Shown here one piece after another: positions 3,768-20,710 of a stretch of 64,000 nucleotides of DNA. Source of the stretch: Candidatus Hydrogenedens sp. (lineage in GTDB: Bacteria; Hydrogenedentota; Hydrogenedentia; Hydrogenedentales; Hydrogenedentaceae); NCBI GenBank assembly GCA_049968235.1, contig JBMFRC010000005.1:121444-185443 (forward strand), written 5' to 3'. Each line of letters opens with the position of its first letter. Within the stretch, counting starts at the first letter, position 1. Position numbers and translations under genes: made by a program. The notes beneath the pieces were generated by a model that did not search any database, had not been told where the DNA came from, and worked only from the letters and a program-made list of their open reading frames with translations.

Positions 3768-6700
3768 ATGGCTGTGGCTCCCCGAACAGAACGTATTTCA
3801 TTATCCCGAGCACCTGAGGATTTATCTCATCTGCCCAATCTCATCGAAATTCAGACCAAATCGTTTGCGGATTTTTTGCAATGGGAGATTCCTCCCCATG
3901 AACGGCAAAATAAAGGACTGCAAGCGGTTCTTAACGAGTATTTCCCTATTGAGTCGCCTAATGGTTTGACGAAATTAGAGTTTGTGTCATACAACATTAT
4001 CCCTCCAAAATATACAATTGAAGAGTGTCAAAATTTAGGATTGACTTATAGTGGCACATTAAAAGCTACAATGAGACTTACAACATATGAAGAATCCCTC
4101 AAAGGTGAAAAGGAAGAGAAGCAGGTTCTTGAACAAGAGGTTTTTATAGCAGAAGTTCCATTAATGACACCCACAGGAACCTTTATTATTAATGGAGCGG
4201 AACGCGTTATTGTAAGTCAATTACATAAATCTCCGGGGGTTTCTTTTGAAAAAAAACAGCATCAAGGAGGAAAATACCTTTTATCTGCCCGAATTATTCC
4301 CTATCATGGAGCGTGGATAGAATTTGAATATGATATTAATGATGTGTTGTGGATTATTGTGGACCGCCGGGTGCGAATGCTGGCAACAACATTCTTAAAG
4401 GCTTTAGGATATGTTGAGCCGGATGAAATTCTGAAGATGTTTTATAGGATGGACCGTGTTCAGATAAAACGGAGTAAGGCATGTATCTTCCAGAAACAGA
4501 GGGTAAAGCGTGGAGGTAAAGAAACGGAGAAAGAAGTAGAGACCCGTGTAGAGGTGAAAGAACTTGTAGGCAATTGGCTTGCCATGGATATAATAGACCC
4601 TGAAACCGGTGAAGTTATTGCAGATGCCTCATCACAAATTACAACTGCGGTATTAAATGCAATTCTTCGTTCTCCTATTCGAGAGTTTTATATCTTAAAT
4701 AAGCAGGATGTGCTGAGTGATATAAGTATTGCTCAAACATTGAATATGGATCAGGCTCAAACGCAAGAAGAGGCGCTTCGTGAGATTTATATTCGTATGA
4801 GACCAGGAGACCCGACCAATGATGCTCAATGTCGGAAGCATTTTGAAAGCCTATTTTTTGACCCGGCTCGTTATGATTTTGCATCCGTAGGCAGGTATAA
4901 AATTAACAGAAAATTAGGGTTACAGATTTCACAGAAACAGCGGACTTTGACAAAGGAAGATATCCTTGAAACCCTTAAATATTTAGTGAAATTACATCGA
5001 GGCGAAGGGACTCTGGATGATATTGACCATTTAGGTAATCGCCGTGTAAGGACAGTGGGTGAACAATTAATGAATCAATTCCGAATTGGTATGGCGCGGA
5101 TGGAGAAAACAATCCGCGAACGAATGAATTACCGTTCTGAAGACCAGGAATATACCCCACAATCACTTATCAATTCGAAGCCGGTGGGAATGGTGTTGAA
5201 GGAATTTTTCGGAAGGAGTCAGTTATCCCATTTTATGGACCAAATCAATCCTTTATCCGAACTAACTCATAAACGACGATTAAGTGCATTGGGACCTGGT
5301 GGATTAAATCGTGACCGTGCTGGTTTCGAGGTCCGCGATGTTCATCCGACCCATTATGGTCGAATCTGCCCGATAGAAACACCTGAAGGACCGAATATCG
5401 GATTAATGGCTTCGATGGCAACATATGCACGAATAAATGAATATGGTTTTCTTGAAACGCCCTATCGTAAGGTGGAAAATGGAAGAGTCACGGATGAAAT
5501 TGTTTACCTGACCGCTTATGATGAAGATAATTATAAAATTGCTCAGGCAAATGAACCTCTGGATAATAAAGGGAAGTTTACAAATCATTTGGTACTTTGC
5601 CGACATAAAGGGGACTTCCCAATGGTTCCACCGGAAGAGGTGGATTTTATGGATGTGTCTCCCAAGCAAATTGTAAGTGCGGCTGCCGCATTAGTCCCAT
5701 TTCTGGAACACGATGATGCAAACCGTGCCTTGATGGGTTCTAATATGCAACGGCAGGCAGTTCCTTTATTAAAAGCGGAACAACCTCTTGTAGGAACCGG
5801 TCTGGAAAAAATCTGTGCAATAAATTCAGGAACTGCCGTTCGGGCTGAACGGTCTGGAATTGTAGAATATGCGGATAGCGAAGTGATTCGTATACGTATC
5901 GACAGTGCAAAAACAGATAATCCATTTAAGTTGGAAGAAGATGTATATCACTTAAAGAAATTTACGCGTTCCAATCAAAGTACCTGCATTAATCAAAAGC
6001 CTATTGTCCAGAAAGGGGATAGGGTAAGTGCAGGAGATATAATTGCAGATGGACCGGGTATGTGTGATGGAGAAATGGCATTAGGTAGAAATGTTTTAGT
6101 TGCGTTTCTACCGTGGGAAGGATATAACTTTGAAGATGCTATTATCCTGAGTGAAGAATTGATTAAAGATGATGTCTTTACCTCTATTCAGGTGGAAGTA
6201 TTTGAGATTGAAGCACGAGATACAAAATTAGGACCGGAAGAAATTACTCCTGATATTCCGAATGAAGGGGAAGAGACCCTGAAAAATCTTGATGAGAATG
6301 GAATTATTCATATTGGCTCAAAAGTTAAGCCGGGAGATATTCTTGTCGGTAAAGTAACACCAAAAGGTGAACAGGAACTGGCACCGGAAGAAAAATTATT
6401 AATTGCTATATTCGGAGAAAAAGCAGAGGATGTACGAAATGCCTCTTTATATGTTCCTCCCGGTACAGAAGGAATAGTTGTGGATGTAAAGGTATCCAGT
6501 CGTCGCAATAAATCTATAGATAAACAAACCAAAGCGAGAATTACCCGAGAAGCAGAACGTATTAAGCAAGAATATGCTGGGCGGATAGAGAAAATTCGAA
6601 AAACTTTTGTGGATTTAGTTCGCGATGATATGTTGGGGCAAAGAATAACGGAAGATGTTTTCGATTATACAACAAATGCCTATGTGCTTGAAAAAGGCAA

Positions 6701-7679
6701 ATCAGTAAGACCATCACACTTAAAGGATTTGGAGTATTCCATATTAGGACGGTTGAAAATTGAAGACAGGAAAATCCAATCGCGGTTTACAAAATTAGTG
6801 AATCAGGCAGCGTTAGAAGAACAAAAACTATTGTCATTCCGTGAGAAAGATTTGGAACGGTTGAGAGAAGGAGATGAATTACCTCCGGGTGTAAATAAGG
6901 TTGTGAAGGTTTATATCGCAACCAAGCGAAAAATGTCTGTTGGTGATAAAATGGCAGGACGCCATGGAAATAAAGGTGTTGTAGCGAAAATTGTTCCTGT
7001 GGAAGATATGCCATTCCTCCCGGATGGAACGCCTATCCAGATTATCTTAAATCCTCTCGGTGTCCCTTCACGAATGAATGTGGGACAAATTTTAGAAACG
7101 CATTTAGGCTGGGCGTTGAAAGTGCTTGGGTTGAAAGTAGCCTCTCCTGTATTTAACGGACCGAAAGAAGAGACAATTATAGATTATTTGAAGAAGGCAG
7201 GACTTCCCACAAATGGCAAGATAAAACTTCGTGACGGAAAGACGGGTGAAGAATTTCATCATGAGACCTGTGTGGGTTATATCTATATGATGAAATTAAA
7301 TCACATGGTAGATGATAAGATACATGCGCGTGCTATCGGTCCTTATTCCTTAGTAACACAACAGCCATTAGGTGGTAAAGCCAATTCAGGAGGACAGCGA
7401 TTTGGAGAAATGGAAGTCTGGGCATTAGAGGCGTATGGTGCGGCATATACTCTTCAAGAGATGCTTACGATAAAATCGGATGATATTCAAGGCAGAACCA
7501 AGATTTACGATGCTATCGTAAAAGGGCATTACGAGGTTGAACCCTCTGTACCAGAATCCTTTAATGTAATAATCCGTGAAATGCAGAGTTTATGTCTTGA
7601 TGTAATAAAACTTGCGAAAGTTGAAACAGCAATAGATACAGAAGAAAAAGAAGACGAGGAGGATATATACATTGGCTAA
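3768..7679 (+). CDS. rpoB: DNA-directed RNA polymerase subunit beta
   Basis: 1303 aa. Hallmark motifs '[15 protein letters not shown]'-like, 'NMQRQAVPL', '[13 protein letters not shown]', '[11 protein letters not shown]'. AAGGAG RBS at 3754. Confidence 0.97.
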
Positions 7680-10600
7680 ATATGTACCTACCACATCAGA
7701 CCGATTTGATGCACTTCAAATTCGGATTGCTTCTCCCGAAGAAATAATGAAATGGTCAAGGGGAGAAGTAAAAAAGCCTGAAACGCTGAACTATCGGACT
7801 TTTAAGCCAGAGAAAGACGGTCTCTTCTGCGAGAAGATATTTGGTCCCACAAAGGACTGGGAATGCGGTTGTGGTAAGTATAAGAAAATAAAACATCGGG
7901 GTATTGTTTGTGATAAATGCGGTGTTGAAATTACTGAGGCTAAAGTGCGACGGGAACGAATGGGTTCAATTCGTCTTGCTGCACCTGTTGCCCATATCTG
8001 GTTCTTTAAGAATAATCCCTCGTGTATGGGTAACCTTCTGGATATGCCTGTCCGCAGTCTGGAACGGGTTATTTATTATGAAAGTTATATTGTAATAGAC
8101 CCCGGCACAACTCGTCTGGAAAAGATGCAGATTTTATCGGAAGATGAATATCAGGATGCAGTGGAAGAATTTGGTTCTAACACATTCAAAGCGAAGATGG
8201 GTGCAGAAGCGATAAAGATTTTATTAGAAGAGATAAATTTGGATGCGTTATCATCGGAACTTCGTGAACAATTTGCAAATTCTACATCAGCACAAACTCG
8301 TTCAAAAGCAATCAAACGATTACAAATAGTAGAAGCATTTCGCAAATCAGGGAATCAACCATCATGGATGATTCTGGATGTAATCCCTGTTTTGCCCCCC
8401 GATTTAAGACCCCTTGTCCCACTGGATGGAGGACGATATGCCACCAGTGATTTAAATGACCTTTATCGGCGTGTGTTAAACCGCAATAACCGTCTCAAGA
8501 AAATCATGGAAATTCGCACACCGGAGATTATTGTCCGTAATGAGAAACGGATGCTTCAAGAGGCGGTAGATGCTCTATTTGATAATGGAAGGCATGGTAG
8601 AGCGGTAGTAGGTACCAACTTGCGACCTTTGAAATCTTTAAGCGATTTCATCAAAGGGAAACAGGGACGTTTCCGTCAGAATTTATTAGGTAAGCGTGTG
8701 GATTATTCCGGTCGTTCCGTTATCGTTGTGGGTCCGGAGTTAAAACTCAATCAATGTGGCTTACCCAAACGCATGGCTCTGGCTCTGTTCGAACCGTTTG
8801 TTATTAGTCGTCTTCAGGAAAAAGGAACTGCTATAACAATTAAAGCGGCACGAAAAATGATACAACAAGAGAGACCAGAGGTATGGGATGTGATAGAAGA
8901 AGTAATCAAAGACCATCCTGTGCTTCTGAACCGTGCCCCAACGCTACACCGACTGGGAATTCAGGCATTCCAACCAATTTTGATAGAAGGAAATGCTATC
9001 CGCATACATCCCCTGGTGTGTAGAGCATACAATGCAGACTTTGATGGGGACCAGATGGCAGTGCATGTGCCTTTAACCCCCGCAGCGCAATTAGAGGCGC
9101 ATCTCTTAATGATGGGTTCATCCAATATTTTTTCGCCGTCCGATGGTTCTCCTATCGTTACACCCAGTCAGGATATTGTTCTGGGTATTGCATGGTTATC
9201 CCGTTCTCGTCCCGGAGCAAAAGGGGAATGGAAAGAAGAGTGGAAAACAGTGCAAGGGGAAGTTCTTTGTAATGCAGGGAAAATATATCCGGACAAAGAA
9301 TCTGTCCTGTTAGCATATCACTTTGGGCATGTGGATATTCATGCAAGAATAAAAATCCACACTCAGGGTAAAATAGTGGATACAACCGTAGGTAGGGTTA
9401 TTCTTTGGGATGCACTACCTCCTGAAATTCAATTGGAAGATGTAAATATAGAACATAACCAATCCACAATTGGTAAGGTTATTGCGGATTGTTATAAAAG
9501 ATTTGGACATCGCAAGACAGTAGAATTGCTGGATTGTTTGAAGAATGTCGGGTTTAAATATGCTACGAAGTCAGGACTTTCTATCGCAATAGAAGATATG
9601 ACCATTCCGCCGGATAAAGAAAAGATATTAGCCCGTGCACGTAAACAAGTGGAGAATATCGAACAACAATATCAGCATGGCTTGTTGACACAGAGAGAAC
9701 GAACCAACAAAATTATTGAGGAATGGAAACGGGCGACGGATGAGGTATCTACGGTAATGTTAACCACCCTTGAACAGAAAGAACAGGGCTTTACCGGTTT
9801 GTATTTAATGTATACATCAAAAGCGAGAGGTAGTAAGGACCAGATTCGACAGTTAGCGGGTATGCGTGGTGTAATGGCAAAACCATCAGGTGATGTTATC
9901 GAAACGCCGATTACTTCCAATTTCAGGGAAGGACTTAGTGTGCTGGAATATTTCATTTCTGCTCATGGTGCTCGCAAGGGTCTGGCAGATACCGCATTAA
10001 AGACGGCGGATGCGGGATATCTTACGCGACGACTGGTAGATGTTGCTCAGGATGTAACTATAGAAGAGTATGATTGCGGAACAATGAACGGTGTGTATGT
10101 CGAACCATTAACATCCGGTCCCGATATTGTTACTTCGTTAGATGAGCGAATTGTAGGAAGATATGCTCTGGACGATATTATTGTTCCGGGATATTCCGAG
10201 CCTGTTGTTCGTGCGAACGAAGAGATTACAGAAGAAAAAGCGAAGGTGATAATGGAATCCGGTTTACCGGGTATTTATGTGCGTTCCGTGCTTACATGTC
10301 AGTCAAAAAGAGGTGTATGTGCCTTATGTTATGGTAGAAATCTTGCAACAGGTAGATTGGTTGAATTGGGTGAAGCGGTCGGTATCATTGCTGCACAGGC
10401 TATCGGAGAACCCGGTACGCAGTTGACCATGAGAACTTTCCACATCGGAGGTGCGGCAAGTCTACAGTTGGAAAATCCTGAAATTCGTATCCCGGAAAGT
10501 GGTAAGGTTATATTCAACAATATTAGAACCGATAAGAACCGTAAAGGGGAAACTGTTATCTTAAATCGTGGCGGAGAAATTCGTGTTCTCAATGATGAAG

Positions 10601-12101: not shown

Positions 12102-13052
12102 ATGTCTATCATATCATTTGTAACAATAGGAATCCTGTCCATAAGCGGAGTATTATTAGATGGTATTGTTGCCACAGTAGATAATGAACCTATACTTATG
12201 AGCGACCTGCGAGAGGAAATTGCCCCCTTCCTTGCTGACTTACAATCGCAGGGAGCCACAGCCCAGCAAATACAGCAGGAGATGGAAAAAGCCCTTCAAA
12301 AGGCATTAGACCGTTATATCGAAAGACTTCTCCTCTATCGTAAAGCAGTCAACGAGGGATTGCAGGTAGATGAAAAAGAAATTGATGAGCGTGTTAACAA
12401 AATAAAAAAACGCTACGGCTCTCCGGAAGAATTTAATCGTCTTTTAGCAGAAAGCGGAGAGGTGATGAGTGAATTTCGTGAACGAATAAAACAACAACTT
12501 ATTGCCCTTTCCTATGCTTTGAAAAAAAGAAAAGAATTTGAAAAAGAAATTACAATATCCGAACCCGATATTGCCAAATACTACAACGAACATATTGAAG
12601 AATTTCAAAATCCGCAACGCATCAAGGTCCGCAGAATATTTCTATCCGCACCCAGAGAAGGGGAGGAACGGACAAAAGTAAAAGAATACATTTTAGAAAT
12701 ATTTGACCGTTTAAAACAGGGTGCGGATTTCGGCTCCATAGCTGAAAATGAATCTCAAGGTCCTGAAGCCGATAAATCTGGACTTATTGGCTGGGTATCC
12801 AGAGGTGATTTAGTTCCCGAATTAGAACAGGAAATCGAAAAAATGTCCGTTGGCGAAATTAGCCAACCCATCGAGACCGAATGGGGTTTTCATATCCTGA
12901 AAGTAGAAGAAAAAGAAGACAGCGGGAAACTTTCCTACGAACAGGCTCGTATCATTATCGAACCAAAACTCAAAGAACAATACATCAACGACCGTTATCA
13001 AAAATGGCTCAATGAAATAAAAAAAGGAGCCAATATCCGCATATTCATGTAA
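12102..13052 (+). CDS. SurA/PrsA-like periplasmic chaperone with one parvulin-type PPIase domain
   Basis: N-terminal signal/TM, SurA_N-like 'ATVDNEPILMSDLREE', parvulin motif 'GWVSRGDLVPELEQEIEKMSVGEISQPIETEWGFHILKV'. Confidence 0.7.
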   Translation: MSIISFVTIGILSISGVLLDGIVATVDNEPILMSDLREEIAPFLADLQSQGATAQQIQQEMEKALQKALDRYIERLLLYRKAVNEGLQVDEKEIDERVNKIKKRYGSPEEFNRLLAESGEVMSEFRERIKQQLIALSYALKKRKEFEKEITISEPDIAKYYNEHIEEFQNPQRIKVRRIFLSAPREGEERTKVKEYILEIFDRLKQGADFGSIAENESQGPEADKSGLIGWVSRGDLVPELEQEIEKMSVGEISQPIETEWGFHILKVEEKEDSGKLSYEQARIIIEPKLKEQYINDRYQKWLNEIKKGANIRIFM

Positions 13053-13307
13053 TAATGAAATGTATAAGCAATAAAAAAAGCACAGATTTCAATTTTCTTT
13101 AAACCTTCAATTATAATCTATATAACATTTTCTTCCAGTCGGATATTTCTCCCCTTCCAATTATCAGTATTTGATTCTTTTGGGATTAATTCTAAAACAA
13201 ATTATATTAATAGCAATAATTTTTTAGGAACTAAACGAAATGAGAAGGTATTTATATATTAATAGTATTATTATAAAAATAATTATGAAATATTTTCTAA
13301 GAAAAGC

Positions 13308-13336
13308 TTGACAAATAATTTTTTTTTTTGTATAAT
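13308..13336 (+). promoter_or_regulatory. consensus sigma-70 promoter TTGACA-N17-TATAAT with a T11 homopolymer filling the spacer
   Basis: ttgaca 13308-13313; spacer 13314-13330 contains ttttttttttt at 13319-13329; tataat 13331-13336. AGGAGG RBS at 13366 and ATG at 13379. Confidence 0.5.
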
Positions 13337-13378
13337 TAAAATTATTAAATTTGAAATTCAATAATAGGAGGTCCAATC

Positions 13379-14935
13379 ATGATTAAGCCATTCAAAAGAG
13401 CAACAACAAGATTCATTTTGACAGGCATATGCTTGTTAATTATTACAAGTTCTGTTTATGGATTGAATACTGATTTTATTCAAAAAGTTAAGGAAACAGA
13501 AAAATTAGTTTACGCCGATGTGAATAACAACTACATAAAAGATGCCCTTCAGAAATTGATAGACCTGTTTCGTTCTATTCCTGAAAATGATATAGAAAGT
13601 GCGGATGCCCTATTAGGACCCCTTCATTTATATAGTTTCATTATAAGCGAGTTTTGTCGTCCGGAATTTTTATATAAGGAAAAATTATTACAGGAGTATC
13701 AATATCCTTCTGACAAGTTATTAATGGCGGTTGCTTATTTGAATAACTCTACTACCCGTGTAAATACGGCTGTCTCTATTATAAATTGTCTAAATGAGTT
13801 GAAGCAAGGAGATAATAGAACCATGACATTTTTAGCGGAGGTGATAGGTGTCTATGCCTTGACATCAGAAGAAAGTATGAGAATACAAAAAGGAATGGGT
13901 TCTGAATTAACAAAGGAGATAGATAAATTATTTATAAATCTTTTCTTTGAAAATTATCCGACATTAACAGCCTCTCAATTTGTTTTACAGGACCTCTTAG
14001 ATAGAGGAATTGAGAAAGTTATTTCCGAATATGGAATGTATAATGTGGATAAACTTGTGAAAACCTATATCGAAACTCCTGAAAAATTAAATTTATTGGC
14101 AGGATTTAATAACACCGATATATCTACTCAAAAACTTTACACGCATCTTTCAGGCTTTAACAAGGTAGCCAATGTCCTACCTTCTATGAATTTATTCGAC
14201 ATCAAAGAGCAGGTTCTTCATAAATGGGTGGAGATGTTGAGGGAAGAAAAAGATATAAACACACGATATACACTCATTACATTCTTAAAATGTGGAAGTA
14301 TTCTAAACAAAGATTGTCAGGAACTTATAAAGACTGCTATCAAGGAAGCCAGCATGAAAAAAGAGTTAACACCGGATGTCCTATATGCAAAGATTACACT
14401 GTTAAAACTTGCTATGAAAAATTACTGGATAAAGGAAGCAGAAGAAATCTTGATGGATATTTCTCAATTAGAATTGTTACCTCCTATTCACGGTATTCAA
14501 AGTGTTTATGCTCAGCAAAAAAGATTTATGGAAAGAGGAACGGAATATTTTGTTAGACTGGGATATTACGACACTGCGAAGAAAGTATTAGAACTCCAAT
14601 TAGCAAAATACCGCGATAGTCACTTTGAAATGGGGACCAGAACTAAATTGGAAAAGTTAGAAAAATATCCAGTTGATTATAGCATAGAGTTAATCAATTT
14701 AGATATGGTAAAGTCTGATATGAGAAGAAGACCCGAGTTAATTCGTAAATATCTTGATGAAATTGTCAAATACACACCTAACCCTGACCTAAAAAACCTT
14801 CTTGCTAATCATAATGTAAATCAGCCTTTGAATTATTATACTAAAGACTATCCTATTATAGTTCAAAGGTTAGGTCTGAAAAAATTTTTTGAAGAGAGGG
14901 GGATACCATACCCTCCCATCGGAACACAAAAATAA
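13379..14935 (+). CDS. secreted hypothetical protein (518 aa), first gene of SSR-regulated operon
   Basis: Signal peptide 'MIKPFKRATTRFILTGICLLIITSSVYG'. Helical K/N/E-rich. No recognisable catalytic motif. Confidence 0.55.
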   Translation: MIKPFKRATTRFILTGICLLIITSSVYGLNTDFIQKVKETEKLVYADVNNNYIKDALQKLIDLFRSIPENDIESADALLGPLHLYSFIISEFCRPEFLYKEKLLQEYQYPSDKLLMAVAYLNNSTTRVNTAVSIINCLNELKQGDNRTMTFLAEVIGVYALTSEESMRIQKGMGSELTKEIDKLFINLFFENYPTLTASQFVLQDLLDRGIEKVISEYGMYNVDKLVKTYIETPEKLNLLAGFNNTDISTQKLYTHLSGFNKVANVLPSMNLFDIKEQVLHKWVEMLREEKDINTRYTLITFLKCGSILNKDCQELIKTAIKEASMKKELTPDVLYAKITLLKLAMKNYWIKEAEEILMDISQLELLPPIHGIQSVYAQQKRFMERGTEYFVRLGYYDTAKKVLELQLAKYRDSHFEMGTRTKLEKLEKYPVDYSIELINLDMVKSDMRRRPELIRKYLDEIVKYTPNPDLKNLLANHNVNQPLNYYTKDYPIIVQRLGLKKFFEERGIPYPPIGTQK

Positions 14936-14963
14936 ATTAATAAACAAGAGAGGAGGACAAAAT

Positions 14964-15099
<136 letters not shown>

Positions 15100-15107
<8 letters not shown>

Positions 15108-17034
15108 TTCTTGCTGTGATATAGAAAATTCCCTAAGTACTAATGCTTCTTGTGGTATTTTTTGTGAAGAGGGAGAATTAGGCAATATTACAGTATACCC
15201 ACAAAATTCTTGTTATTTAAAGGGAGAGAAAGTTCATGTATGGTTTGAAGGGACCAATCCGGATTATGATTTTTGTAACTGGTTATCCGATCCCCCTGAT
15301 ATTTATTCTGCTAACAATCCTTTACCTTACACAGTGGTTCAGATAAAAGACCAACCCCAGTCGCTAATTGCGTTTTGCCAGAAAAATAAGGTAACACTTA
15401 CAGTAGAGTGTGACTACGCTTCTTTTTTAATGCCTGGGAATAGATTAGAAGTTCCATCCGGAGCAAATGTGGCATATACCATAGTTAGTGGAGAACAGGT
15501 CCCCTGGCGTTATACTATAGAATATCCAGTAGGTTCCTCAATTGAAGTTTCTGCGATACCTGCCGATGGTTATATAATAGACTGGAAGGGGAATAGTGCT
15601 TGTGTTGGGGGATGTAAAGGTATTAGATATTATCAAAATAGTATTAATGTTATGATGGTGGGTAGTGTCTATTTAAAGCCTTGTGCAACCCACATAAACG
15701 ATTACGATTTTGATTTTCACACAATGACAATTAGTGCGGTTTATGGGGAGGGTATATTGTTAAGTGGCGGATATAATTATTCTCAGGGTGGGTGCGATAT
15801 ACCTCTATTTCCATATGCTTCTGCTTTATCTTATGGCAGATTTCGTGTAGCAGTAGTTCCAGAATCATTTAAATCTCTAGCATACTGGTATTGCTCTACA
15901 GAAAATCTTTATTGCCCTTCTGAAGTAGCAGAAGCAGTTTTCCCAATAAATGGAAATAGGACACATTCTGCTAACGCAGTTCTGGTTGATAAGGTTTTTT
16001 TAATTACTCCTGACCCATTAGGATTAAAGTACATAGACCATGTTCATTATTATGAAAATAATATGGGAGGTATAGCAAAAATAATTACTCCACTTTTATA
16101 TTCACCATCGAGTTTTGACCCATATCCTTTGGGGTGGAATCCTTTACCATACGGTTCTACCCATCCCAATGAATTCTGGTCGGTAGAAAATCTCTATGAG
16201 TGCCCAGAATGCAATGCGGTGGAACTTGAGCCCATTCCCTGTTTAGGTTCTGAATTCTTATATTGGGAAGTATCCCCTGATGGTGATGTTTGGATACCTG
16301 TCCCTCGCAATCCTATAAATCCAAATCTTACCGTATATATGAATTATTTTGGTTCATTTGACCCCATCTACTATCCTGGCGATATACATATTCCCAATGG
16401 AGGTGTCACCCTCTATGTTCGACCGGTATTCAAATTGTCTTGTGACTTCGTTTGTGGATATTGTTCCGGTCCTGATGGCCGTGATGTAATAATTGATATG
16501 TATGAAAATCCCGAGGTATTGTTGGGTGTTCAAATGTATCCTGGTCCAGCACCTGATTGCAGTAAATATGTAACAAACCAACAGAACCATCCTGCTCACT
16601 ATGAAAAAGAGGATTTATTACCATTTAATGTATTACAATGTCACCATGGAACTTTAAATTATCCGCACGATGGTTGGGCGATAGAGGACGGGATAGCGGA
16701 GTGTTATGATGCAGTAGAGCAAGCATATTCGGGAACGATAAATGTAACATCTGTATATCGTTGCCCGGTGAAGAATTCATCTGTTAATGGGAGTTTAACA
16801 AGCAAACATCTATTGGGCAAAGCATTTGACTTCGACCAACCAAGTTCAGAAGCCAACTGGCGTGTAGCTAAAACAGCATATGAATGTAATAATAATAATG
16901 AGATATTATTGTATTATTATGAGAACGGTAATAAAAAATCAGTAAGTTTTTATAAAGTTTCAGATGAAAATGAAAAACCATGGGAAAAATACATCTTCGA
17001 ACATGGACATGTTGGGATAGTTTCTGGAGATTAA
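15100..17034 (+). CDS. body of candidate phase-variable lipoprotein: Cys-rich extracellular region plus C-terminal peptidase M15A (LAS zinc D,D/L,D-peptidase, DUF882/YcbK-like) domain
   Basis: Frame +1 is open from 14977 with no start codon. It encodes '...LLSISILISGC PPQNPPQEF...' with lipobox I-S-G-C (Cys codon 15064-66) before the track GTG at 15100. C-terminus 'SVYRCPVKNSSVNGSLTSKHLLGKAFDFD' matches the SGYRxPxxNxxVGGxxxSxHxxGxAxD motif; 'HDGWAIED' and 'EHGH' supply the other Zn-ligand/ExxH motifs. Confidence 0.6.
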
Positions 17035-17059
17035 TAGTAAAAAGAAGGAGGAAAACGAT

Positions 17060-18328
17060 ATGACAATTTATCTTAAAACAGGAAAAAAATTCACATTAAT
17101 ATGTTTTTTTATATTATGTATTGTGAAAAATGGATATTCGCAAACAGATATAATTGAAAGTAAAACGATAAATTGGGGAAAGATTTATTCTTTAGTAGTT
17201 ATGGAAAGACTTCCTGAATTAGATGCAGAAAAAGAAAGAGAAATATTAGAAGAAACAGATAAAATTTTACATGAAACGAAGTCTCTTTATAAAGCCTGCA
17301 ATTTTCTAATGAATGAGGTAGCAGAAAAAGATAGGAAGAGATACTTAATTGTTGGCAATAAGAAAATAAAAGAAAAATTAGTGGAATTATTTAAGATGAG
17401 GATACAGTGTGAATTAAAAGAGGCAATTCAATCCGACTTGCAAGACAGTATTTTAAGTAGAAAAGATATTTCAGAAGAAGATAAGATGAGAGTGTTAGAG
17501 TCGATAAATAAAGAAAAAGAACTTATGAATAGTACTTTGAATTATTTAATAATGAGAGATGGTGATATGTGTTTAGATTGTTACATTCGTGATACAGAAC
17601 TGAAAAAGTTGTTGACGCCCCCACCGGGACAGGAAGAAGAATTTGAACCTGAAGGAGTATATTATAACATAGAGGCTTTTTATTCAGTAGCTCTTAGTAC
17701 CTTTGTTCCGGAGATGTATGATTATTTGTGGTTATCAAAATATGATGTAGAAGAGTTACCTTATTATCCTTTATATTTTTATATACTTAAGGTCTATCCG
17801 AAAGAATTTCTTAATGATATATCCCATGGTTTTATAAGATACAAAGATGGGTATATATACCGGAAAGAAGGAGAAGGTTTTCGATGGGAAGATGTGTTTA
17901 ACATCGCAGGGTTACTAACAGAATATAATTCATCTTTTGTAGAGCAAGAAAAGGATAGAATTAAAACAATATTGGGAAAATACTTTGAAGATTTTATAGG
18001 CAATATAAGGAAGGAAAGAGAAGAACTATTCCTACAAATATCTAGTAATAATAAAAAAGAGGATAGGACTACTTGCAATAGCATGTTAACAGATACTTTT
18101 TTTAAAGAATTGAGACTACGAGAAAAGATGTTAGCGATTTATGAGCGAATAGGAGAGAAAGAGGATGTAGAGGATATAAAGAAGTTGGCAGAAGATATTC
18201 CTTTGGATTATCCGGTGTGGGAGAGCAATCGAGAAGGGGACGAAAAACTAAGAGAAAGATACCTACAACGGGTGAAGGAACTTCAAGACAGAGTGAAAGT
18301 ATTGGTTGAGAAATTATCTCAACAATAG
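17060..18328 (+). CDS. secreted hypothetical protein (422 aa), E/K-rich coiled-coil
   Basis: AAGGAGG RBS. Signal peptide 'MTIYLKTGKKFTLICFFILCIVKNGYSQT'. Only 25 nt after the lipoprotein gene. Confidence 0.5.
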   Translation: MTIYLKTGKKFTLICFFILCIVKNGYSQTDIIESKTINWGKIYSLVVMERLPELDAEKEREILEETDKILHETKSLYKACNFLMNEVAEKDRKRYLIVGNKKIKEKLVELFKMRIQCELKEAIQSDLQDSILSRKDISEEDKMRVLESINKEKELMNSTLNYLIMRDGDMCLDCYIRDTELKKLLTPPPGQEEEFEPEGVYYNIEAFYSVALSTFVPEMYDYLWLSKYDVEELPYYPLYFYILKVYPKEFLNDISHGFIRYKDGYIYRKEGEGFRWEDVFNIAGLLTEYNSSFVEQEKDRIKTILGKYFEDFIGNIRKEREELFLQISSNNKKEDRTTCNSMLTDTFFKELRLREKMLAIYERIGEKEDVEDIKKLAEDIPLDYPVWESNREGDEKLRERYLQRVKELQDRVKVLVEKLSQQ

Positions 18329-18599
18329 AAGGAACATTTCAGAGATTAAAATAACACTGTTTGAATACTGCTTTTCTTCTCTACTTTTTAACAGGGGACT
18401 TTATTTGATTATAGATAAAAAAAAGAACTGGGGATGAGAGGGGAATAAATTCCTAAAATAGATATTTATGTTCATAGGGTACATTTGAAGTATTTTTTTA
18501 TAATGCGGATTGTAACTTATTGAAGATGGCTTTTATAATGAGGTAAGAAAAATAAGGAGTATTTTTATTGTTTTAGTTTAGAAAATAGTTCAGTTTATT

Positions 18600-19382
18600 A
18601 TGTTAAAGCGTGCGTTAAAGATGAGTTTTTGGGTTTGGTATGATTATATGGGGACATGGTTCTTTTTTAATGTGAGTTTTATTTGCCCACTGTTATTTTT
18701 GGCTATCCCCTTGTTATCTTATGATGTTGGATATTTTTCTTTATTGGGTGGCTTTTTATTCTTTCTGATGGTTGCCTATTTTTACTTTGTAAATGTTTTT
18801 GTCTCTGCATTTACAGTTACTATTCTTGAGCATAAAGAAGGATTTCGTGAGAAGCTTATTTATGCGTTAAAGATTGTTGTATTCAAGGCAGGTTCGGTGT
18901 TCTTTTTGTTCGCACTATTTTTTCTGATTGTATGGGTCAATATCAGATTTTATATAAGTAGCCAATTTTTTAATTTTCTATGGGTAAGGTATATTCTTTT
19001 AGGTCTTTTTATGTGGTTCGGACTGTTTTCTTTTATATCTTTGTTGTGGGTTGTTCCTTCATTATCGTTTAAGAAAATATCCTTTTGGAAATATGTATAC
19101 TGGGGATATGTCCTTTTATTAGCCAATCCGTATTTTAGTTTTCAGGTGCTTTTTTGCTATACTATATTATGTATATTGAATATGTTTCCTTTATTTTTCT
19201 TTTTTATGGGCATGGTAATGCCGTCAATTTTTTTGACCTGTGCCTATGAAATTTTATCCCGGAAATATGAGGCGATTCAGACCTCAGGGGATAAGTTAGA
19301 AGATTATCAAATTTTTAGAGATTACGAAGATGAATTTCTCAACCGAAGTTGGGAACATCTCATAAAACCCTGGAAATTATAA
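18600..19382 (+). CDS. polytopic membrane protein, unknown function
   Basis: About 6 hydrophobic segments rich in F/L/W. No motif recognised. Confidence 0.5.
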   Translation: MLKRALKMSFWVWYDYMGTWFFFNVSFICPLLFLAIPLLSYDVGYFSLLGGFLFFLMVAYFYFVNVFVSAFTVTILEHKEGFREKLIYALKIVVFKAGSVFFLFALFFLIVWVNIRFYISSQFFNFLWVRYILLGLFMWFGLFSFISLLWVVPSLSFKKISFWKYVYWGYVLLLANPYFSFQVLFCYTILCILNMFPLFFFFMGMVMPSIFLTCAYEILSRKYEAIQTSGDKLEDYQIFRDYEDEFLNRSWEHLIKPWKL

Positions 19383-19393
19383 CCACGTTTTAA

Positions 19394-20710
<1,317 letters not shown>

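What the first reader, a model, noticed from the sequence alone, without database searches (positions are those of the whole stretch)
13053..18600. AT-rich three-gene secreted-protein operon inserted between housekeeping blocks
The stretch between the PPIase gene and the membrane-protein/eno/ftsB block encodes three proteins. All have signal peptides, none has conserved enzymatic motifs apart from the M15A tail, and their composition is Lys/Asn/Ile-rich. Gaps are short (28 and 25 nt), implying one transcript from the 13308 promoter. By eye the region is more AT-rich than rpoBC or eno (not computed). Together with the two SSRs this looks like a lineage-specific surface or secreted antigen module rather than core metabolism.
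Basis: inference. Interest (0 to 1): 0.5.

Follow-up and report, generated by a model that had tools for sequence, protein, structure and literature searches.

The report
Phase-variable lipoprotein toxin–immunity-like operon
An accessory three-gene operon of an uncultured Hydrogenedens bacterium encodes a secreted helical protein, a lipoprotein ending in a cell-wall peptidase, and a matching partner protein; here the lipoprotein gene is switched off by one extra copy of a 4-base repeat, and in relatives its enzyme tail and partner gene are exchanged together as cassettes, which is how bacterial toxin–immunity systems behave.

Summary
The three genes, the 28- and 25-nt gaps, the perfect promoter and the AT-richness are real. 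Two points of the description need correction. ORF2 is not one open frame here: its ATG (14964) is out of frame with its body (15100-17034) because of a (TATC)8 tract. The low GC comes from amino-acid composition and the spacers, and synonymous codon usage is native.

The organism is Candidatus Hydrogenedens. The module sits at the same site in most relatives, is absent from two, and diverges far faster than its flanks. It is therefore an old, dispensable, fast-evolving locus rather than a recent insertion.

Both repeats vary between near-identical assemblies. (TATC)7 is in frame and (TATC)8 out of frame in this lineage; 4 is in frame and 5 out of frame in Ca. H. terephthalaticus. The promoter T-tract varies from 10 to 12.

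In relatives, the last 50-85 residues of the M15 peptidase co-vary with the ORF3-like gene immediately downstream. Arrays of 5'-truncated tail plus ORF3-like cassettes follow the full gene. One strain has swapped its tail by recombination between 117-nt repeats.

Best reading: a phase-variable, polymorphic peptidoglycan-peptidase lipoprotein toxin with a periplasmic immunity protein. This is analogous to Neisseria MafABI and Myxococcus SitAI, but it is not a member of either family. Toxicity and immunity are inferred, not shown.

The parts
13308..13336 (+). Sigma-70-type promoter TTGACA-17 nt-TATAAT. The spacer contains the T11 tract.
   Evidence: It is the only 12/12 consensus match in 12900-19500. 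TTGACA plus a T-tract is conserved upstream of the module in L002, L005, L007 and L010. A distant GC-rich module (L024) has TTGACA-19 nt (including G13)-TATAGT.
13319..13329 (+). Homopolymer T11 inside the promoter spacer. It is a candidate expression 'volume control'.
   Evidence: It is the only A/T run of 9 or more in the 64-kb window. The tract length differs between near-identical assemblies of Ca. H. terephthalaticus (T12, T11, T10) and between species (T14, T9, T7).
13379..14935 (+). ORF1, 518 aa. A secreted alpha-solenoid (armadillo/HEAT-like) protein with a predicted Sec signal peptide and no known domain.
   Evidence: ORF. No Pfam or NCBIfam hit. AlphaFold2 model with pLDDT 83.5 and pTM 0.84, all-helical. 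Foldseek against PDB found only generic ARM repeats at E > 1e-3. Nine homologues, all in the Hydrogenedens clade. Remote homologues hold the same first position in the L023 and L024 modules (hhalign probability 97.9 and 99.0).
14964..15107 (+). ORF2 start codon and leader, preceded by the RBS GAGGAGG. In this window it reads an out-of-frame 47-codon ORF that ends at TAA 15105-15107 (phase OFF).
   Evidence: The same ATG with (TATC)7 in L001 gives an uninterrupted 688-aa lipoprotein.
15001..15032 (+). (TATC)8 tetranucleotide repeat inside the hydrophobic core of the ORF2 signal peptide. This is the frame switch.
   Evidence: It is the highest-scoring tandem repeat in the window (score 64, 100% matches). 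Copy numbers seen: 8 (window, L006; out of frame), 7 (L001; in frame), 6 (L005; out of frame), 4 (L007, L008, L009, L022, L025; in frame) and 5 (L019, L020, L021, L026; out of frame). The repeat encodes the same S-I-Y-L peptide in all three frames, as read directly from the sequence.
15052..15066 (+). Lipobox L-I-S-G-C in the frame of the ORF2 body.
   Evidence: Translation of the +1 frame. ILISGC or LVSGC is conserved in P0002, L005 and P0022.
15100..17034 (+). ORF2 body (644 codons from the GTG that annotators chose). It is a Cys-rich region of beta-repeats (27 Cys in the full-length 688-aa protein) that resembles InlB B-repeat surface domains, followed by the peptidase domain.
   Evidence: ORF. 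Annotated by NCBI as 'D-Ala-D-Ala carboxypeptidase family metallohydrolase', Candidatus Hydrogenedens sp.. Remote homologues of residues 1-515 carry Flg_new_2 (PF18998) repeats, and three of them also end in Peptidase_M15_3.
16699..17031 (+). C-terminal M15 (LAS-type) zinc peptidase domain. The motifs YRCP..N, SKHLLGKAFD and HGH are intact. The last roughly 50-85 residues form the variable 'tail'.
   Evidence: Pfam PF08291, 36 bits. A profile of the domain hits the Streptomyces albus Zn D-Ala-D-Ala carboxypeptidase 1LBU (E 0.004) across the Arg and H..D zinc motifs. Conserved columns. Identity to the L002 orthologue falls from 72-92% to 14-38% in the last ~85 residues.
17060..18328 (+). ORF3, 422 aa. 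A secreted all-helical repeat protein and the candidate cognate immunity or inhibitor protein.

Best explanation
The locus is a dispensable, fast-evolving three-gene operon of Candidatus Hydrogenedens. It behaves like a polymorphic toxin-immunity system and sits under two simple-sequence-repeat switches.

ORF2 is a Sec/Lol-type lipoprotein. Its N-terminal part is a Cys-rich, beta-repeat surface region, and its C-terminus is an M15 zinc peptidase predicted to cut peptidoglycan peptide stems. ORF3 is a periplasmic helical-repeat protein proposed to bind and neutralise the variable tail of that peptidase. This would protect the producer and its kin, both during export and against toxin received from neighbours. 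ORF1 is a secreted alpha-solenoid that co-diverges with the ORF2 N-terminal region. It is proposed to act as an export or delivery helper, by analogy with MafA.

Expression is controlled at two levels. Slippage in the T-tract changes the promoter spacer length and therefore transcription of the whole operon. Slippage in the (TATC)n tract inside the signal-peptide coding region puts the ORF2 start codon in or out of frame; copy numbers congruent to 1 mod 3 are ON. In this window the state is T11 with (TATC)8. The promoter is at its optimal 17-nt spacing and the toxin is OFF, while ORF1 and ORF3 still have their own ribosome-binding sites.

Shown here:
- the gene anatomy and the intact peptidase motifs;
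- SSR length polymorphism between near-identical genomes that changes the reading frame;
- presence/absence polymorphism of the module;
- mosaic divergence of the module relative to its flanks;
- co-inheritance of each tail with the ORF3-like gene downstream;
- orphan cassettes in relatives, and a recombinational tail swap.

Inferred:
- toxicity, immunity, peptidoglycan as the substrate, lipidation, the delivery route, the role of ORF1, and high-frequency reversible switching.
For: 1. Frame switching by the SSR.
- The window and L006 carry (TATC)8, and the ATG frame stops after 47 codons. L001 has identical flanks and (TATC)7, giving a 688-aa lipoprotein.
- In Ca. H. terephthalaticus, (TATC)4 is in frame (L007, L008, L009, L022, L025) and (TATC)5 is out of frame (L019, L020, L021, L026), again with identical flanks.
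- L005 carries (TATC)6 and is out of frame. The L002 lineage has (TC)6 at the same place.

2. The promoter tract.
- T12, T11 and T10 occur among near-identical assemblies.
- A remote GC-rich homologous module (L024) has a G13 tract in the same position, between TTGACA and TATAGT.
- Of the Hydrogenedens-clade loci scanned, those lacking ORF2 or lacking the whole module have no SSR.

3. Polymorphic-toxin anatomy.
- The ORF2 N-terminal region is 72-92% identical to L002, but the last ~85 residues are only 14-38% identical.
- Tail types pair with the type of the downstream ORF3-like gene: A1 with W3, L005b and L013; A2 with L005a and L002b; B with L002a, L007b and L019c; T1 and T2 pair at 97-100% within the terephthalaticus lineage. 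Mantel r = 0.80, with 0 of 20,000 permutations reaching the observed value.
- Orphan tails are 5'-truncated, down to 55-aa remnants, and some lack a start codon. The ORF3-like genes that follow them are intact except one, L007b, which has a single in-frame stop.
- L022 equals L019 minus the DNA between two 117-nt direct repeats. This fuses ORF2 to the orphan tail and deletes the old tail together with its partner gene.

4. Enzyme.
- The Pfam M15_3 match, the conserved R / H..D / H.H motifs and the alignment to 1LBU.
- Peptidase_M15_3 is already recorded in antibacterial T6SS effectors and as 'M15 domain only' ORFs within polymorphic toxin loci (PMC6833914, PMC10210955).

5. Accessory and discordant evolution.
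- The module is absent from L015 and L016.
- L007 is the closest relative by its flanks (RpoC 94.7%, PPIase 91%), yet its ORF1 is 45% and its ORF2 46% identical.

6. The three-gene unit recurs in other contexts and in GC-rich organisms (L023, L024), with signal peptides on all three products.
Against: - No toxicity, binding or peptidoglycan-cleavage data exist.
- All tails belong to one enzyme family, and only the last 50-85 residues vary. No other toxin domain was found on this N-terminal region. This differs from classical polymorphic toxins.
- Co-variation of a tail with the gene next to it is also what plain physical linkage would produce.
- ORF3 (370-430 aa) is large for an immunity protein, and its fold is uninformative.
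- No delivery machinery is identified, and ORF1 has no known relatives.
- L010 and L018 keep ORF1-like and ORF3-like genes without ORF2.
- This window itself has no orphan cassette.
- SSR differences were seen between assemblies, not within one clonal population. Homopolymer lengths in assemblies can be erroneous. Some records may be duplicates (L021 and L026 are both 8,406 nt).
- The ORF3-like gene of L024 matches the family only weakly (probability 14%).
Confidence: 0.58

Rival explanations
1. A phase- and antigen-variable surface adhesin or phage-receptor module. ORF2 would be a surface-exposed lipoprotein whose expression and C-terminal epitope are varied to escape phages or grazers. ORF1 and ORF3 would be structural partners, and the orphan tails would act as silent cassettes in the manner of pilS.
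For: SSR switches of this kind are typical of surface structures, and the switches here are real. The ORF2 N-terminal region resembles InlB B-repeat (Flg_new_2) surface proteins. The module diverges much faster than its flanks. Tail replacement by recombination was observed.
Against: The varied part is the tail of an enzyme whose catalytic motifs are intact, not the putative surface repeats. Every silent tail carries its own large secreted partner gene, intact in all but one case, and that gene's type matches the tail. Antigenic-variation cassettes do not need such a partner. No phage or receptor evidence was found.
Confidence: 0.2
2. An endogenous cell-wall remodelling module. ORF2 would be a housekeeping-type DD- or LD-carboxy/endopeptidase lipoprotein acting on the cell's own peptidoglycan, with ORF1 and ORF3 as periplasmic regulators or scaffolds.
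For: An M15 domain with intact motifs. All three products are predicted to be periplasmic or outer-membrane proteins. The locus lies next to envelope and division genes (a SurA-like PPIase and ftsB).
Against: The module is missing from two congeners, and ORF2 is missing from two more. The gene is frameshifted in about half of the assemblies. One orthologue has lost a zinc ligand (SKP in P0003). Cassette arrays, tail swapping and extreme divergence are not expected of a housekeeping enzyme.
Confidence: 0.12
3. A recently acquired foreign AT-rich island inserted between housekeeping blocks.
For: The region has the lowest GC of its size in the window. It shows presence/absence polymorphism. The three-gene unit also occurs in unrelated contexts (L023, L024).
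Against: Synonymous codon usage and GC3 are native. There are no tRNA genes, integrase or flanking repeats. Every relative that carries the module has it at this site, including the most divergent ones (L010, L018), and the same promoter precedes it wherever that region was read.
Confidence: 0.05
4. The frameshift is gene decay or an assembly artefact, and the SSRs have no regulatory role.
For: Metagenome assemblies collapse population variation and can misjudge repeat lengths. P0003 carries a probable inactivating His-to-Pro change.
Against: A 28-32-nt tetranucleotide tract lies well inside a read length. Differences of exactly one unit recur in two lineages across several independent datasets. 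The 644-codon body has no other lesion. The tract is kept at the same position in orthologues whose surrounding sequence has diverged to 25-32%.
Confidence: 0.05

Closest known systems
Neisseria maf genomic islands (mafA-mafB-mafI with alternative mafB-CT/mafI cassettes; PMC4287609, PMC7738311)
   Same: The gene order matches: an upstream exported accessory protein, then a toxin with an ordinary Sec-type signal peptide, then the cognate gene immediately downstream, then 5'-truncated alternative C-terminal cassettes that each carry their own cognate gene. Both systems are restricted to a narrow taxonomic range. No classical secretion system is encoded alongside either (for Maf; for this locus).
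   Different: There is no sequence relationship, and Pfam finds no DUF1020. Here the toxin is a lipoprotein and the accessory protein is not, which is the reverse of Maf. The variable part is the tail of a single enzyme family (M15) rather than unrelated toxin domains. The immunity candidate is a secreted protein of about 420 aa. This locus also has SSR phase switches.
Myxococcus SitA/SitI polymorphic lipoprotein toxins delivered by outer-membrane exchange (PMC5562445, PMC8546572)
   Same: Both are lipobox-bearing polymorphic toxins with a gene immediately downstream that is specific to the toxin variant. A lipoprotein offers a plausible route for transfer between cells or by vesicles.
   Different: No homology was found and no TraA/TraB was identified. 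SitA C-terminal domains are, from my own knowledge, mostly cytoplasm-acting toxins paired with cytoplasmic immunity proteins. The delivery route here is unknown.
CDI (cdiA-CT/cdiI) and Rhs orphan cassette arrays
   Same: Both have a conserved N-terminal part, a sharp fall in identity at the C-terminus, displaced orphan C-terminal/immunity pairs, and homologous recombination that swaps the C-terminus.
   Different: This locus has no TpsB or T6SS partner and no VENN or PxxxxDPxGL demarcation motif. The recombination substrate is the conserved M15 catalytic core itself (117-nt repeats).
Peptidoglycan-hydrolase effectors with periplasmic immunity (T6SS Tae/Tai and Tge/Tgi; M15_3-containing Tpe14 of Acinetobacter, PMC6833914; 'M15 domain only' ORFs in Neisseria T6SS toxin loci, PMC10210955)
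   Same: Both use an M15_3 catalytic domain as an antibacterial warhead, and a periplasm-targeted partner gene lies next to it.
   Different: No T6SS context (VgrG, PAAR or LysM) is present. Export relies on the signal peptide and lipobox only.
Classical SSR contingency loci: Neisseria opa (CTCTT repeats in the signal-peptide coding region), Haemophilus influenzae tetranucleotide-repeat genes, and homopolymer tracts in promoter spacers (Mycoplasma hyorhinis vlp, Neisseria opc/porA). Cited from my own knowledge; see also PMC6625227 and PMC12721329.
   Same: A tetranucleotide tract in the leader-peptide coding region switches the reading frame, and a homopolymer between the -35 and -10 elements sets the spacer length. 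Both tracts differ between near-identical genomes.
   Different: The host is an uncultured, free-living bioreactor or sediment bacterium from a candidate phylum, not a host-adapted pathogen. The controlled gene looks like an interbacterial toxin rather than an adhesin or an LPS-modifying enzyme.

Membership tests
Peptidase family M15 / LAS zinc peptidases (Pfam PF08291 Peptidase_M15_3) | Match to the family HMM above the curated threshold | tested here: met
   36.0 bits against a cut-off of 23.2, E 8.3e-09, ORF2 body residues 534-595. The orthologues P0022, P0023, P0024 and P0029 also match.
Peptidase family M15 / LAS zinc peptidases (Pfam PF08291 Peptidase_M15_3) | Zinc ligands H-x6-D and a C-terminal His (H-x-H), plus the conserved Arg of the (S)xYR motif | tested here: met
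   YRCP, SKHLLGKAFD and HGH are present in the window protein and are conserved columns across 7-9 homologues. The Arg and H..D block aligns with the S. albus DD-carboxypeptidase 1LBU, E 0.004. One orthologue (P0003) has SKP in place of SKH.
Peptidase family M15 / LAS zinc peptidases (Pfam PF08291 Peptidase_M15_3) | Hydrolysis of peptidoglycan stem-peptide bonds | not testable with these tools
   This needs purified protein and muropeptide analysis.
SSR-mediated phase-variable (contingency) locus | A perfect simple repeat within the 5' coding region or the core promoter | tested here: met
   (TATC)8 lies in the signal-peptide coding region and T11 lies in the 17-nt promoter spacer.
SSR-mediated phase-variable (contingency) locus | A change in repeat number switches the gene between in-frame and out-of-frame | tested here: met
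   7 copies give a 688-aa product and 8 copies give a stop after 47 codons. In the other lineage, 4 copies give 674 or 681 aa and 5 copies give a stop after 31 codons.
SSR-mediated phase-variable (contingency) locus | Repeat-number polymorphism among otherwise near-identical genomes | tested here: met
   Window against L001: the 240 nt of flanks aligned are identical and ORF1 and ORF2 are 100% identical. L022 against L019: 99.6% DNA identity, with 4 versus 5 copies. L019 against L021: 99.99% identity, with T11 versus T10.
SSR-mediated phase-variable (contingency) locus | High-frequency reversible switching within a clonal population, with a matching change in expression | not testable with these tools
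Polymorphic toxin-immunity systems (CDI/Rhs/Maf type) | A conserved N-terminal region with a sharply divergent C-terminal region | tested here: met
   Sliding-window identity to L002 is 72-92% and falls to 38, 18 and 14% from residue ~604 of 688. P0034 and P0022 share a nearly identical N-terminus but have different tails.
Polymorphic toxin-immunity systems (CDI/Rhs/Maf type) | The gene immediately downstream co-varies with the C-terminal type (cognate pairs) | tested here: met
   Pairings of types A1, A2, B, T1 and T2. Mantel r 0.80, with 0 of 20,000 permutations reaching it. Caveat: physical linkage alone would also produce this pattern.
Polymorphic toxin-immunity systems (CDI/Rhs/Maf type) | Orphan 5'-truncated C-terminal/immunity cassettes downstream, and C-terminus replacement by recombination | tested here: met
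   Orphans occur in L002, L005, L007, L013, L019, L021 and L022. L022 is the recombinant formed across 117-nt repeats. The window's own copy has none.
Polymorphic toxin-immunity systems (CDI/Rhs/Maf type) | Unrelated toxin domain families carried on the same N-terminal scaffold | tested here: not met
   All full-length relatives found end in Peptidase_M15_3. The other hits are Flg_new_2 surface proteins with no toxin domain.
Polymorphic toxin-immunity systems (CDI/Rhs/Maf type) | The C-terminal domain is toxic and is neutralised specifically by the cognate downstream protein | not testable with these tools
   This requires expression and competition assays.
Neisseria MafB family | N-terminal DUF1020 domain | tested here: not met
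   Pfam finds only PF08291 in ORF2. The locus is an analogue, not a member.
Horizontally acquired genomic island | Atypical synonymous codon usage or GC3 | tested here: not met
   z = -0.33, +0.79 and +0.75 against the multinomial expectation. GC3 lies within 1.5 sd of the window's genes.
Horizontally acquired genomic island | An integration hallmark (tRNA gene, flanking direct repeats or mobility genes) | tested here: not met
   No tRNA genes in the 64 kb. No flanking repeat longer than chance matches. The three ORFs have no integrase or transposase domain.
Horizontally acquired genomic island | Presence/absence polymorphism among close relatives | tested here: met
   In L015 and L016 the PPIase gene is followed after 35 and 97 nt by the membrane-protein gene. 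The tree implies at least two independent losses.

The most novel reading that the evidence does not exclude
ORF1-ORF2-ORF3 could be a previously undescribed interbacterial weapon that needs no dedicated secretion system. It would consist of a Sec/lipoprotein-exported peptidoglycan-peptidase toxin, a family of periplasmic helical-repeat immunity proteins, and a dedicated alpha-solenoid helper. Its specificity would be re-assorted by recombination inside the catalytic core. Its expression would be hard-wired to two hypermutable tracts: a homopolymer in the promoter spacer, present from AT-rich Hydrogenedens (poly-T) to a 63%-GC organism (poly-G), and a frame-neutral tetranucleotide repeat in the signal peptide. 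If correct, this would be the first contingency locus and the first kin-discrimination system described in Hydrogenedentota. It would also be an example of SSR phase variation governing a toxin in a free-living environmental bacterium.
Probability: 0.35. Interest if true: 0.75.

Novelty: new variant of a known kind. Interest (0 to 1): 0.62.

Why it matters
SSR-driven phase variation has been documented almost entirely in host-adapted pathogens. Polymorphic toxin systems are usually recognised through their secretion machinery (T5, T6 or T7SS).

This locus combines both behaviours in a candidate phylum with no cultured representative. It uses only a signal peptide and a lipobox, and all three proteins are absent from Pfam and NCBIfam apart from the M15 core. 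It therefore offers a new immunity-protein family, a possible new export helper, and a case in which recombination within a catalytic domain re-pairs an enzyme tail with its inhibitor.

There is also a practical point for annotation. Annotation pipelines call the OFF alleles as N-terminally truncated 'D-Ala-D-Ala carboxypeptidase family' proteins (644, 640 and 633 aa), which hides the switch.

The hypothesis can be tested directly with a few constructs.

Tried and rejected
- Foreign origin. Tested with per-gene GC, GC3 and a leave-one-out synonymous-codon likelihood. The three genes are native in codon usage, so recent horizontal transfer was rejected.
- Island hallmarks. The searches for tRNA genes, flanking direct repeats and known RNA elements found nothing.
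- Terminators. The consensus scan found none after the PPIase gene or after ORF3, so the operon boundaries rest on the promoter and on spacing alone.
- M15 tail against PDB. A single-sequence search gave nothing. A 7-sequence profile was needed to reach 1LBU.
- Other toxin domains on the ORF2 N-terminal region. I looked for them as a test of canonical polymorphic-toxin status and found none.
- L027 (P0024 context). It was too short to be informative and has no SSR.
- The upstream region of L023 has no homopolymer tract.
- A script bug, in which alignment files overwrote locus sequences, produced empty output. It was fixed.
- dN/dS was not attempted, because synonymous sites between these species are likely to be saturated.

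Full report
**What is at the coordinates.** Three same-strand ORFs lie between a SurA-like PPIase gene (12102-13052; Rotamase and SurA_N domains) and a conserved 260-aa membrane protein/eno/ftsB/phoH block. ORF1 is 13379-14935 (518 aa). ORF2 ends at 17034. ORF3 is 17060-18328 (422 aa). The gaps are 28 and 25 nt, and each gene is preceded by a strong Shine-Dalgarno sequence. TTGACA-17 nt-TATAAT at 13308-13336 is the only perfect 12/12 promoter match in the region. Pfam recognises only a Peptidase_M15_3 domain at the C-terminus of ORF2. NCBIfam adds nothing, and Rfam finds no RNA element. The protein databases name the ORF2 product 'MAG: D-Ala-D-Ala carboxypeptidase family metallohydrolase [Candidatus Hydrogenedens sp.]', so the window comes from the candidate phylum Hydrogenedentota.

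**Correction to the observation: ORF2 is frameshifted here.** That frame runs through a perfect (TATC)8 tract (15001-15032) and stops at 15105-15107 after 47 codons. This tract is the strongest tandem repeat in the 64 kb. The 644-codon body is in the +1 frame, and upstream of the GTG chosen by annotators that frame encodes '...LSLLSISILISGC', a lipoprotein signal peptide with a lipobox. A 4-kb contig from another assembly (L001, GCA_049971155.1) is identical across the aligned flanks and encodes identical ORF1 and ORF2 body proteins, but it has (TATC)7. There the gene is an uninterrupted 688-aa lipoprotein. A third assembly (L006) again has 8 copies. The tract encodes the same S-I-Y-L peptide in all three frames, so any in-frame copy number still gives a workable hydrophobic core.

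**Composition.** The 5.5-kb region has GC 0.332 against 0.375 for the window, ranking 4th lowest of 585 windows of equal size. The cause is not foreign origin.
- ORF2 has average GC (0.379).
- ORF1 (0.329) and ORF3 (0.310) are low at codon positions 1 and 2.
- GC3 (0.301, 0.270, 0.260) lies within 1.5 sd of the 44 ORFs used as the window's gene set (mean 0.311, sd 0.034).
- The two spacers have GC 0.206 and 0.266.
- A leave-one-out likelihood of synonymous codon choice puts the three genes at z = -0.33, +0.79 and +0.75 relative to expectation.
- 'Lys/Asn/Ile-rich' is only approximately true. ORF2 is instead Cys-, Tyr- and Pro-rich.

**Distribution and synteny.** ORF2, ORF1 and ORF3 have 3, 9 and 9 homologues among 5.8 billion clustered proteins, and all are unnamed or from Hydrogenedens. 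I compared contexts recovered by exact-protein look-ups and by a scan of GTDB species genomes using the PPIase, running tblastn with the window's proteins.
- Flanking genes are 79-95% identical in all relatives.
- In L015 and L016 (RpoC 92% and 91%) the PPIase gene is followed after 35 and 97 nt by the membrane-protein gene, so the module is absent.
- L010, L017 and L018 (RpoC 88%) have only ORF1-like and ORF3-like genes.
- L002, L005 and the Ca. H. terephthalaticus records (L007-L009, L019-L022) have ORF1, ORF2 and two or three ORF3-like genes interspersed with short M15 fragments.
- A midpoint-rooted RpoC+PPIase tree gives (L010, L018) | ((L016, (L007, window)), (L002, L015)). The two genomes that lack the module are therefore not sisters. 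Ancestral presence with at least two losses is the most economical history.
- No tRNA genes, flanking repeats or mobility genes are present.
- Module divergence is discordant with the flanks. L007 is the window's closest relative by RpoC (94.7%) and PPIase (91%), yet its ORF1, ORF2 and ORF3-like proteins are 45%, 46% and 33-35% identical.

Codon usage is native and the site is conserved, but the gene content is not.

**Both SSRs really vary.**
- In the terephthalaticus lineage, otherwise identical leader sequences carry (TATC)4 in frame (674 or 681 aa; L007, L008, L009, L022, L025) or (TATC)5 out of frame with a stop after 31 codons (L019, L020, L021, L026). L021 and L026 may be the same contig.
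- L005 has (TATC)6 and is out of frame. The L002 lineage has (TC)6 at the same spot and is in frame.
- In all three (TATC) lineages, copy numbers congruent to 1 mod 3 are ON.
- The promoter T-tract is T12, T11 or T10 among near-identical terephthalaticus assemblies. It is T11 in the window, T14 in L002, T9 in L005, and only T7 in the ORF2-less L010 and L018.
- In every Hydrogenedens locus scanned (10-21 kb each, plus the 64-kb window), the only SSRs above threshold lie inside the module: these two sites plus a C9 tract inside an ORF3-like gene of L005. Loci without ORF2 have none.
- A remote homologous module in a 63%-GC organism (L024) has TTGACA, then 19 nt that include a G13 tract, then TATAGT. 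A homopolymer in the promoter spacer therefore looks like a maintained design feature and not an accident of AT-richness.

**What the proteins are.**
- ORF2. Residues 1-515 of the body detect, in an exhaustive phmmer search of 1.84 billion representatives, only the terephthalaticus orthologue, three more distant proteins that also end in Peptidase_M15_3, and surface proteins built of Flg_new_2 (divergent InlB B-repeat) domains.
- The C-terminal domain keeps the LAS/M15 signature (YRCP..N, S-x-H-x-x-G-x-A-x-D, H-x-H) as conserved columns. As a profile it reaches the Streptomyces albus zinc D-Ala-D-Ala carboxypeptidase 1LBU (E 0.004) across the Arg and His/Asp zinc motifs.
- ORF1 (pLDDT 83.5) and ORF3 (pLDDT 85) model confidently as all-helical repeat proteins behind N-terminal signal-peptide-like helices. 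They have only generic armadillo/HEAT-like structural neighbours. They look like binding proteins rather than enzymes.

**Cassette behaviour, the key evidence for mechanism.**
- Along ORF2, identity to the L002 orthologue is 72-92% until about residue 604 of 688, then falls to 38, 18 and 14%. Against L007 the N-terminal region is 25-55% identical, but the M15 core is 58-67%. The gene is therefore a mosaic whose breakpoints lie inside the peptidase domain.
- The short M15 ORFs in relatives (55-142 aa) are 5'-truncated copies of this domain. Several have a stop codon just upstream and no start codon.
- Classifying tails (the sequence after the zinc Asp) and the ORF3-like gene directly downstream gives consistent pairs:
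  - A1 (window ORF2, L005 orphan, L013 orphan; 59-73% alike) pairs with W3, L005b and L013 (57-60% alike).
  - A2 (L005 ORF2, L002 orphan; 73%) pairs with L005a and L002b (57-58%).
  - B (L002 ORF2, L007 orphan, and the 55-aa remnants in L019, L021 and L022; 65-68%) pairs with L002a, L007b and L019c. These last three are 97-100% alike within the terephthalaticus lineage and 42-54% across lineages.
  - T1 and T2 pair with two further types that are 100% conserved among strains.
- Two ORF3-like genes within the same genome are only 36-47% identical.
- A Mantel test of tail identity against downstream-gene identity gives r = 0.80, with 0 of 20,000 permutations reaching it.
- L022 equals L019 with a precise deletion between two 117-nt direct repeats that are 97.4% alike. 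One repeat lies in the M15 core of ORF2 and the other in the first orphan. The deletion fuses ORF2 to tail T2 and removes tail T1 together with its partner gene. L007 carries a different deletion that removes the T2 tail and its partner.
- This is the anatomy and dynamics of CDI/Rhs/Maf-type polymorphic toxin loci (for Maf). M15_3 domains are on record as antibacterial effector domains and as 'M15 domain only' ORFs in polymorphic toxin loci.

**Wider occurrence of the triad.** The remote ORF2 homologues P0023 (L023, GC 0.54) and P0029 (L024, GC 0.63, next to thyA-folA) sit in the same three-gene arrangement. Their upstream genes are ORF1-family members (hhalign probability 97.9 and 99.0). The downstream gene of L023 is an ORF3-family member (probability 94.4), and that of L024 matches only weakly (probability 14). 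All have N-terminal signal peptides. The triad is therefore a functional unit that is older and more widespread than the Hydrogenedens locus.

**Most likely mechanism (confidence about 0.6).** ORF2 is exported by Sec, lipidated, and displayed or released. Its M15 domain cleaves peptidoglycan stem peptides of cells that lack the matching inhibitor. ORF3, in the periplasm, binds the variable tail and protects the producer and its kin. ORF1 co-diverges with the ORF2 N-terminal region (74/61/45% identity for ORF1 alongside roughly 80/75/40% for that region in L002, L005 and L007) and may assist export or delivery. Slippage in the T-tract tunes transcription, and slippage in (TATC)n gates translation of the toxin only. 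The window is in the state with an optimal promoter and the toxin OFF.

Against this reading:
- There are no functional data.
- All tails belong to one enzyme family.
- Physical linkage alone could explain the co-variation.
- ORF3 is large for an immunity protein.
- No delivery route is known.
- L010 and L018 keep ORF1 and ORF3 without ORF2.
- The SSR differences were seen between assemblies, not within a clone.

The rivals are a phase- and antigen-variable surface or phage-receptor module (0.2), an endogenous wall-remodelling enzyme with regulators (0.12), a recent foreign island (0.05), and decay or artefact (0.05).

**Novelty and verdict.** Each ingredient is known: SSR contingency switches, polymorphic toxin/immunity cassettes, and M15 cell-wall hydrolases. 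What is new is the combination.
- A lipoprotein toxin that needs no dedicated secretion system.
- Specificity re-assorted by recombination within the catalytic core.
- A new immunity-like family and a new helper-like family.
- Dual SSR control that is conserved across very different GC contents.
- All of this in an uncultured environmental phylum.

A full-text search found no paper linking Hydrogenedentes with phase variation beyond an incidental co-mention. I classify the finding as a new variant of a known kind, with interest 0.62. 'Inserted' and 'antigen' should be replaced by 'ancestral but dispensable, hypervariable, phase-variable toxin-immunity-like operon'.

Noticed in passing
L024:4327-4357: A distant (63% GC) homologue of the three-gene module has a promoter built as TTGACA, then a 19-nt spacer containing a G13 tract, then TATAGT, about 90 nt upstream of its ORF1-like gene. 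This is the same architecture as the T-tract promoter in Hydrogenedens, with a different homopolymer.
   Followed up: partly
L005:7300-7308: A C9 homopolymer lies inside the second ORF3-like gene (6598-7869) of the L005 module. It could be a further slippage-prone site within an immunity-like gene.
   Followed up: no
L005:2918-4819 (P0003): This ORF2 orthologue has SKPLLGKAFD where the others have SKH..G.A.D, so a predicted zinc-ligand His is replaced by Pro. Its (TATC)6 tract is also out of frame. This may be a decaying toxin allele.
   Followed up: partly
L007:15314-16510: The ORF3-like gene downstream of the hybrid 129-aa orphan carries one in-frame stop codon and was called as 74 + 316 aa. 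The 97%-identical copies in L019 and L022 are intact (398 aa).
   Followed up: partly
window:18600-19382: The 260-aa multi-pass membrane protein downstream of the module has no Pfam or NCBIfam family. It is syntenic in all relatives, including those that lack the module, but evolves much faster (50-77% identity) than eno, phoH and rpoC (84-95%).
   Followed up: partly
window:41519-45570: Two tandem genes encode trypsin-like peptidases. One has a C-terminal dockerin type I domain (589 aa) and the other has Calx-beta and bacterial TSP3 repeats (740 aa). They look like secreted or surface proteases.
   Followed up: no
window:57091-63295: Two adjacent large ORFs (529 and 1537 aa) have no Pfam match. 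The first is also AT-rich (GC 0.341).
   Followed up: no
window:45909-46304: This 131-codon ORF has strongly atypical synonymous codon usage (z -4.1) and the highest GC3 in the window (0.417). It may not be a real gene, or it may be foreign.
   Followed up: no
window:11809-12101 (compare L002:6828-6983, L007:8572-8730, L010:7271-7456): Gene callers place a small 51-61-aa ORF with no Pfam family between rpoC and the PPIase gene in all relatives. The corresponding window spacer was not examined.
   Followed up: no
L013:1-1693: A 5'-truncated A1-type M15 tail plus its ORF3-like gene (58% identical to the window's ORF3) lies in a different downstream context (tilS-like, pectate-lyase-like, DUF4838 and NPCBM genes). 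The contig begins at the fragment, so what lies upstream is unknown.
   Followed up: partly
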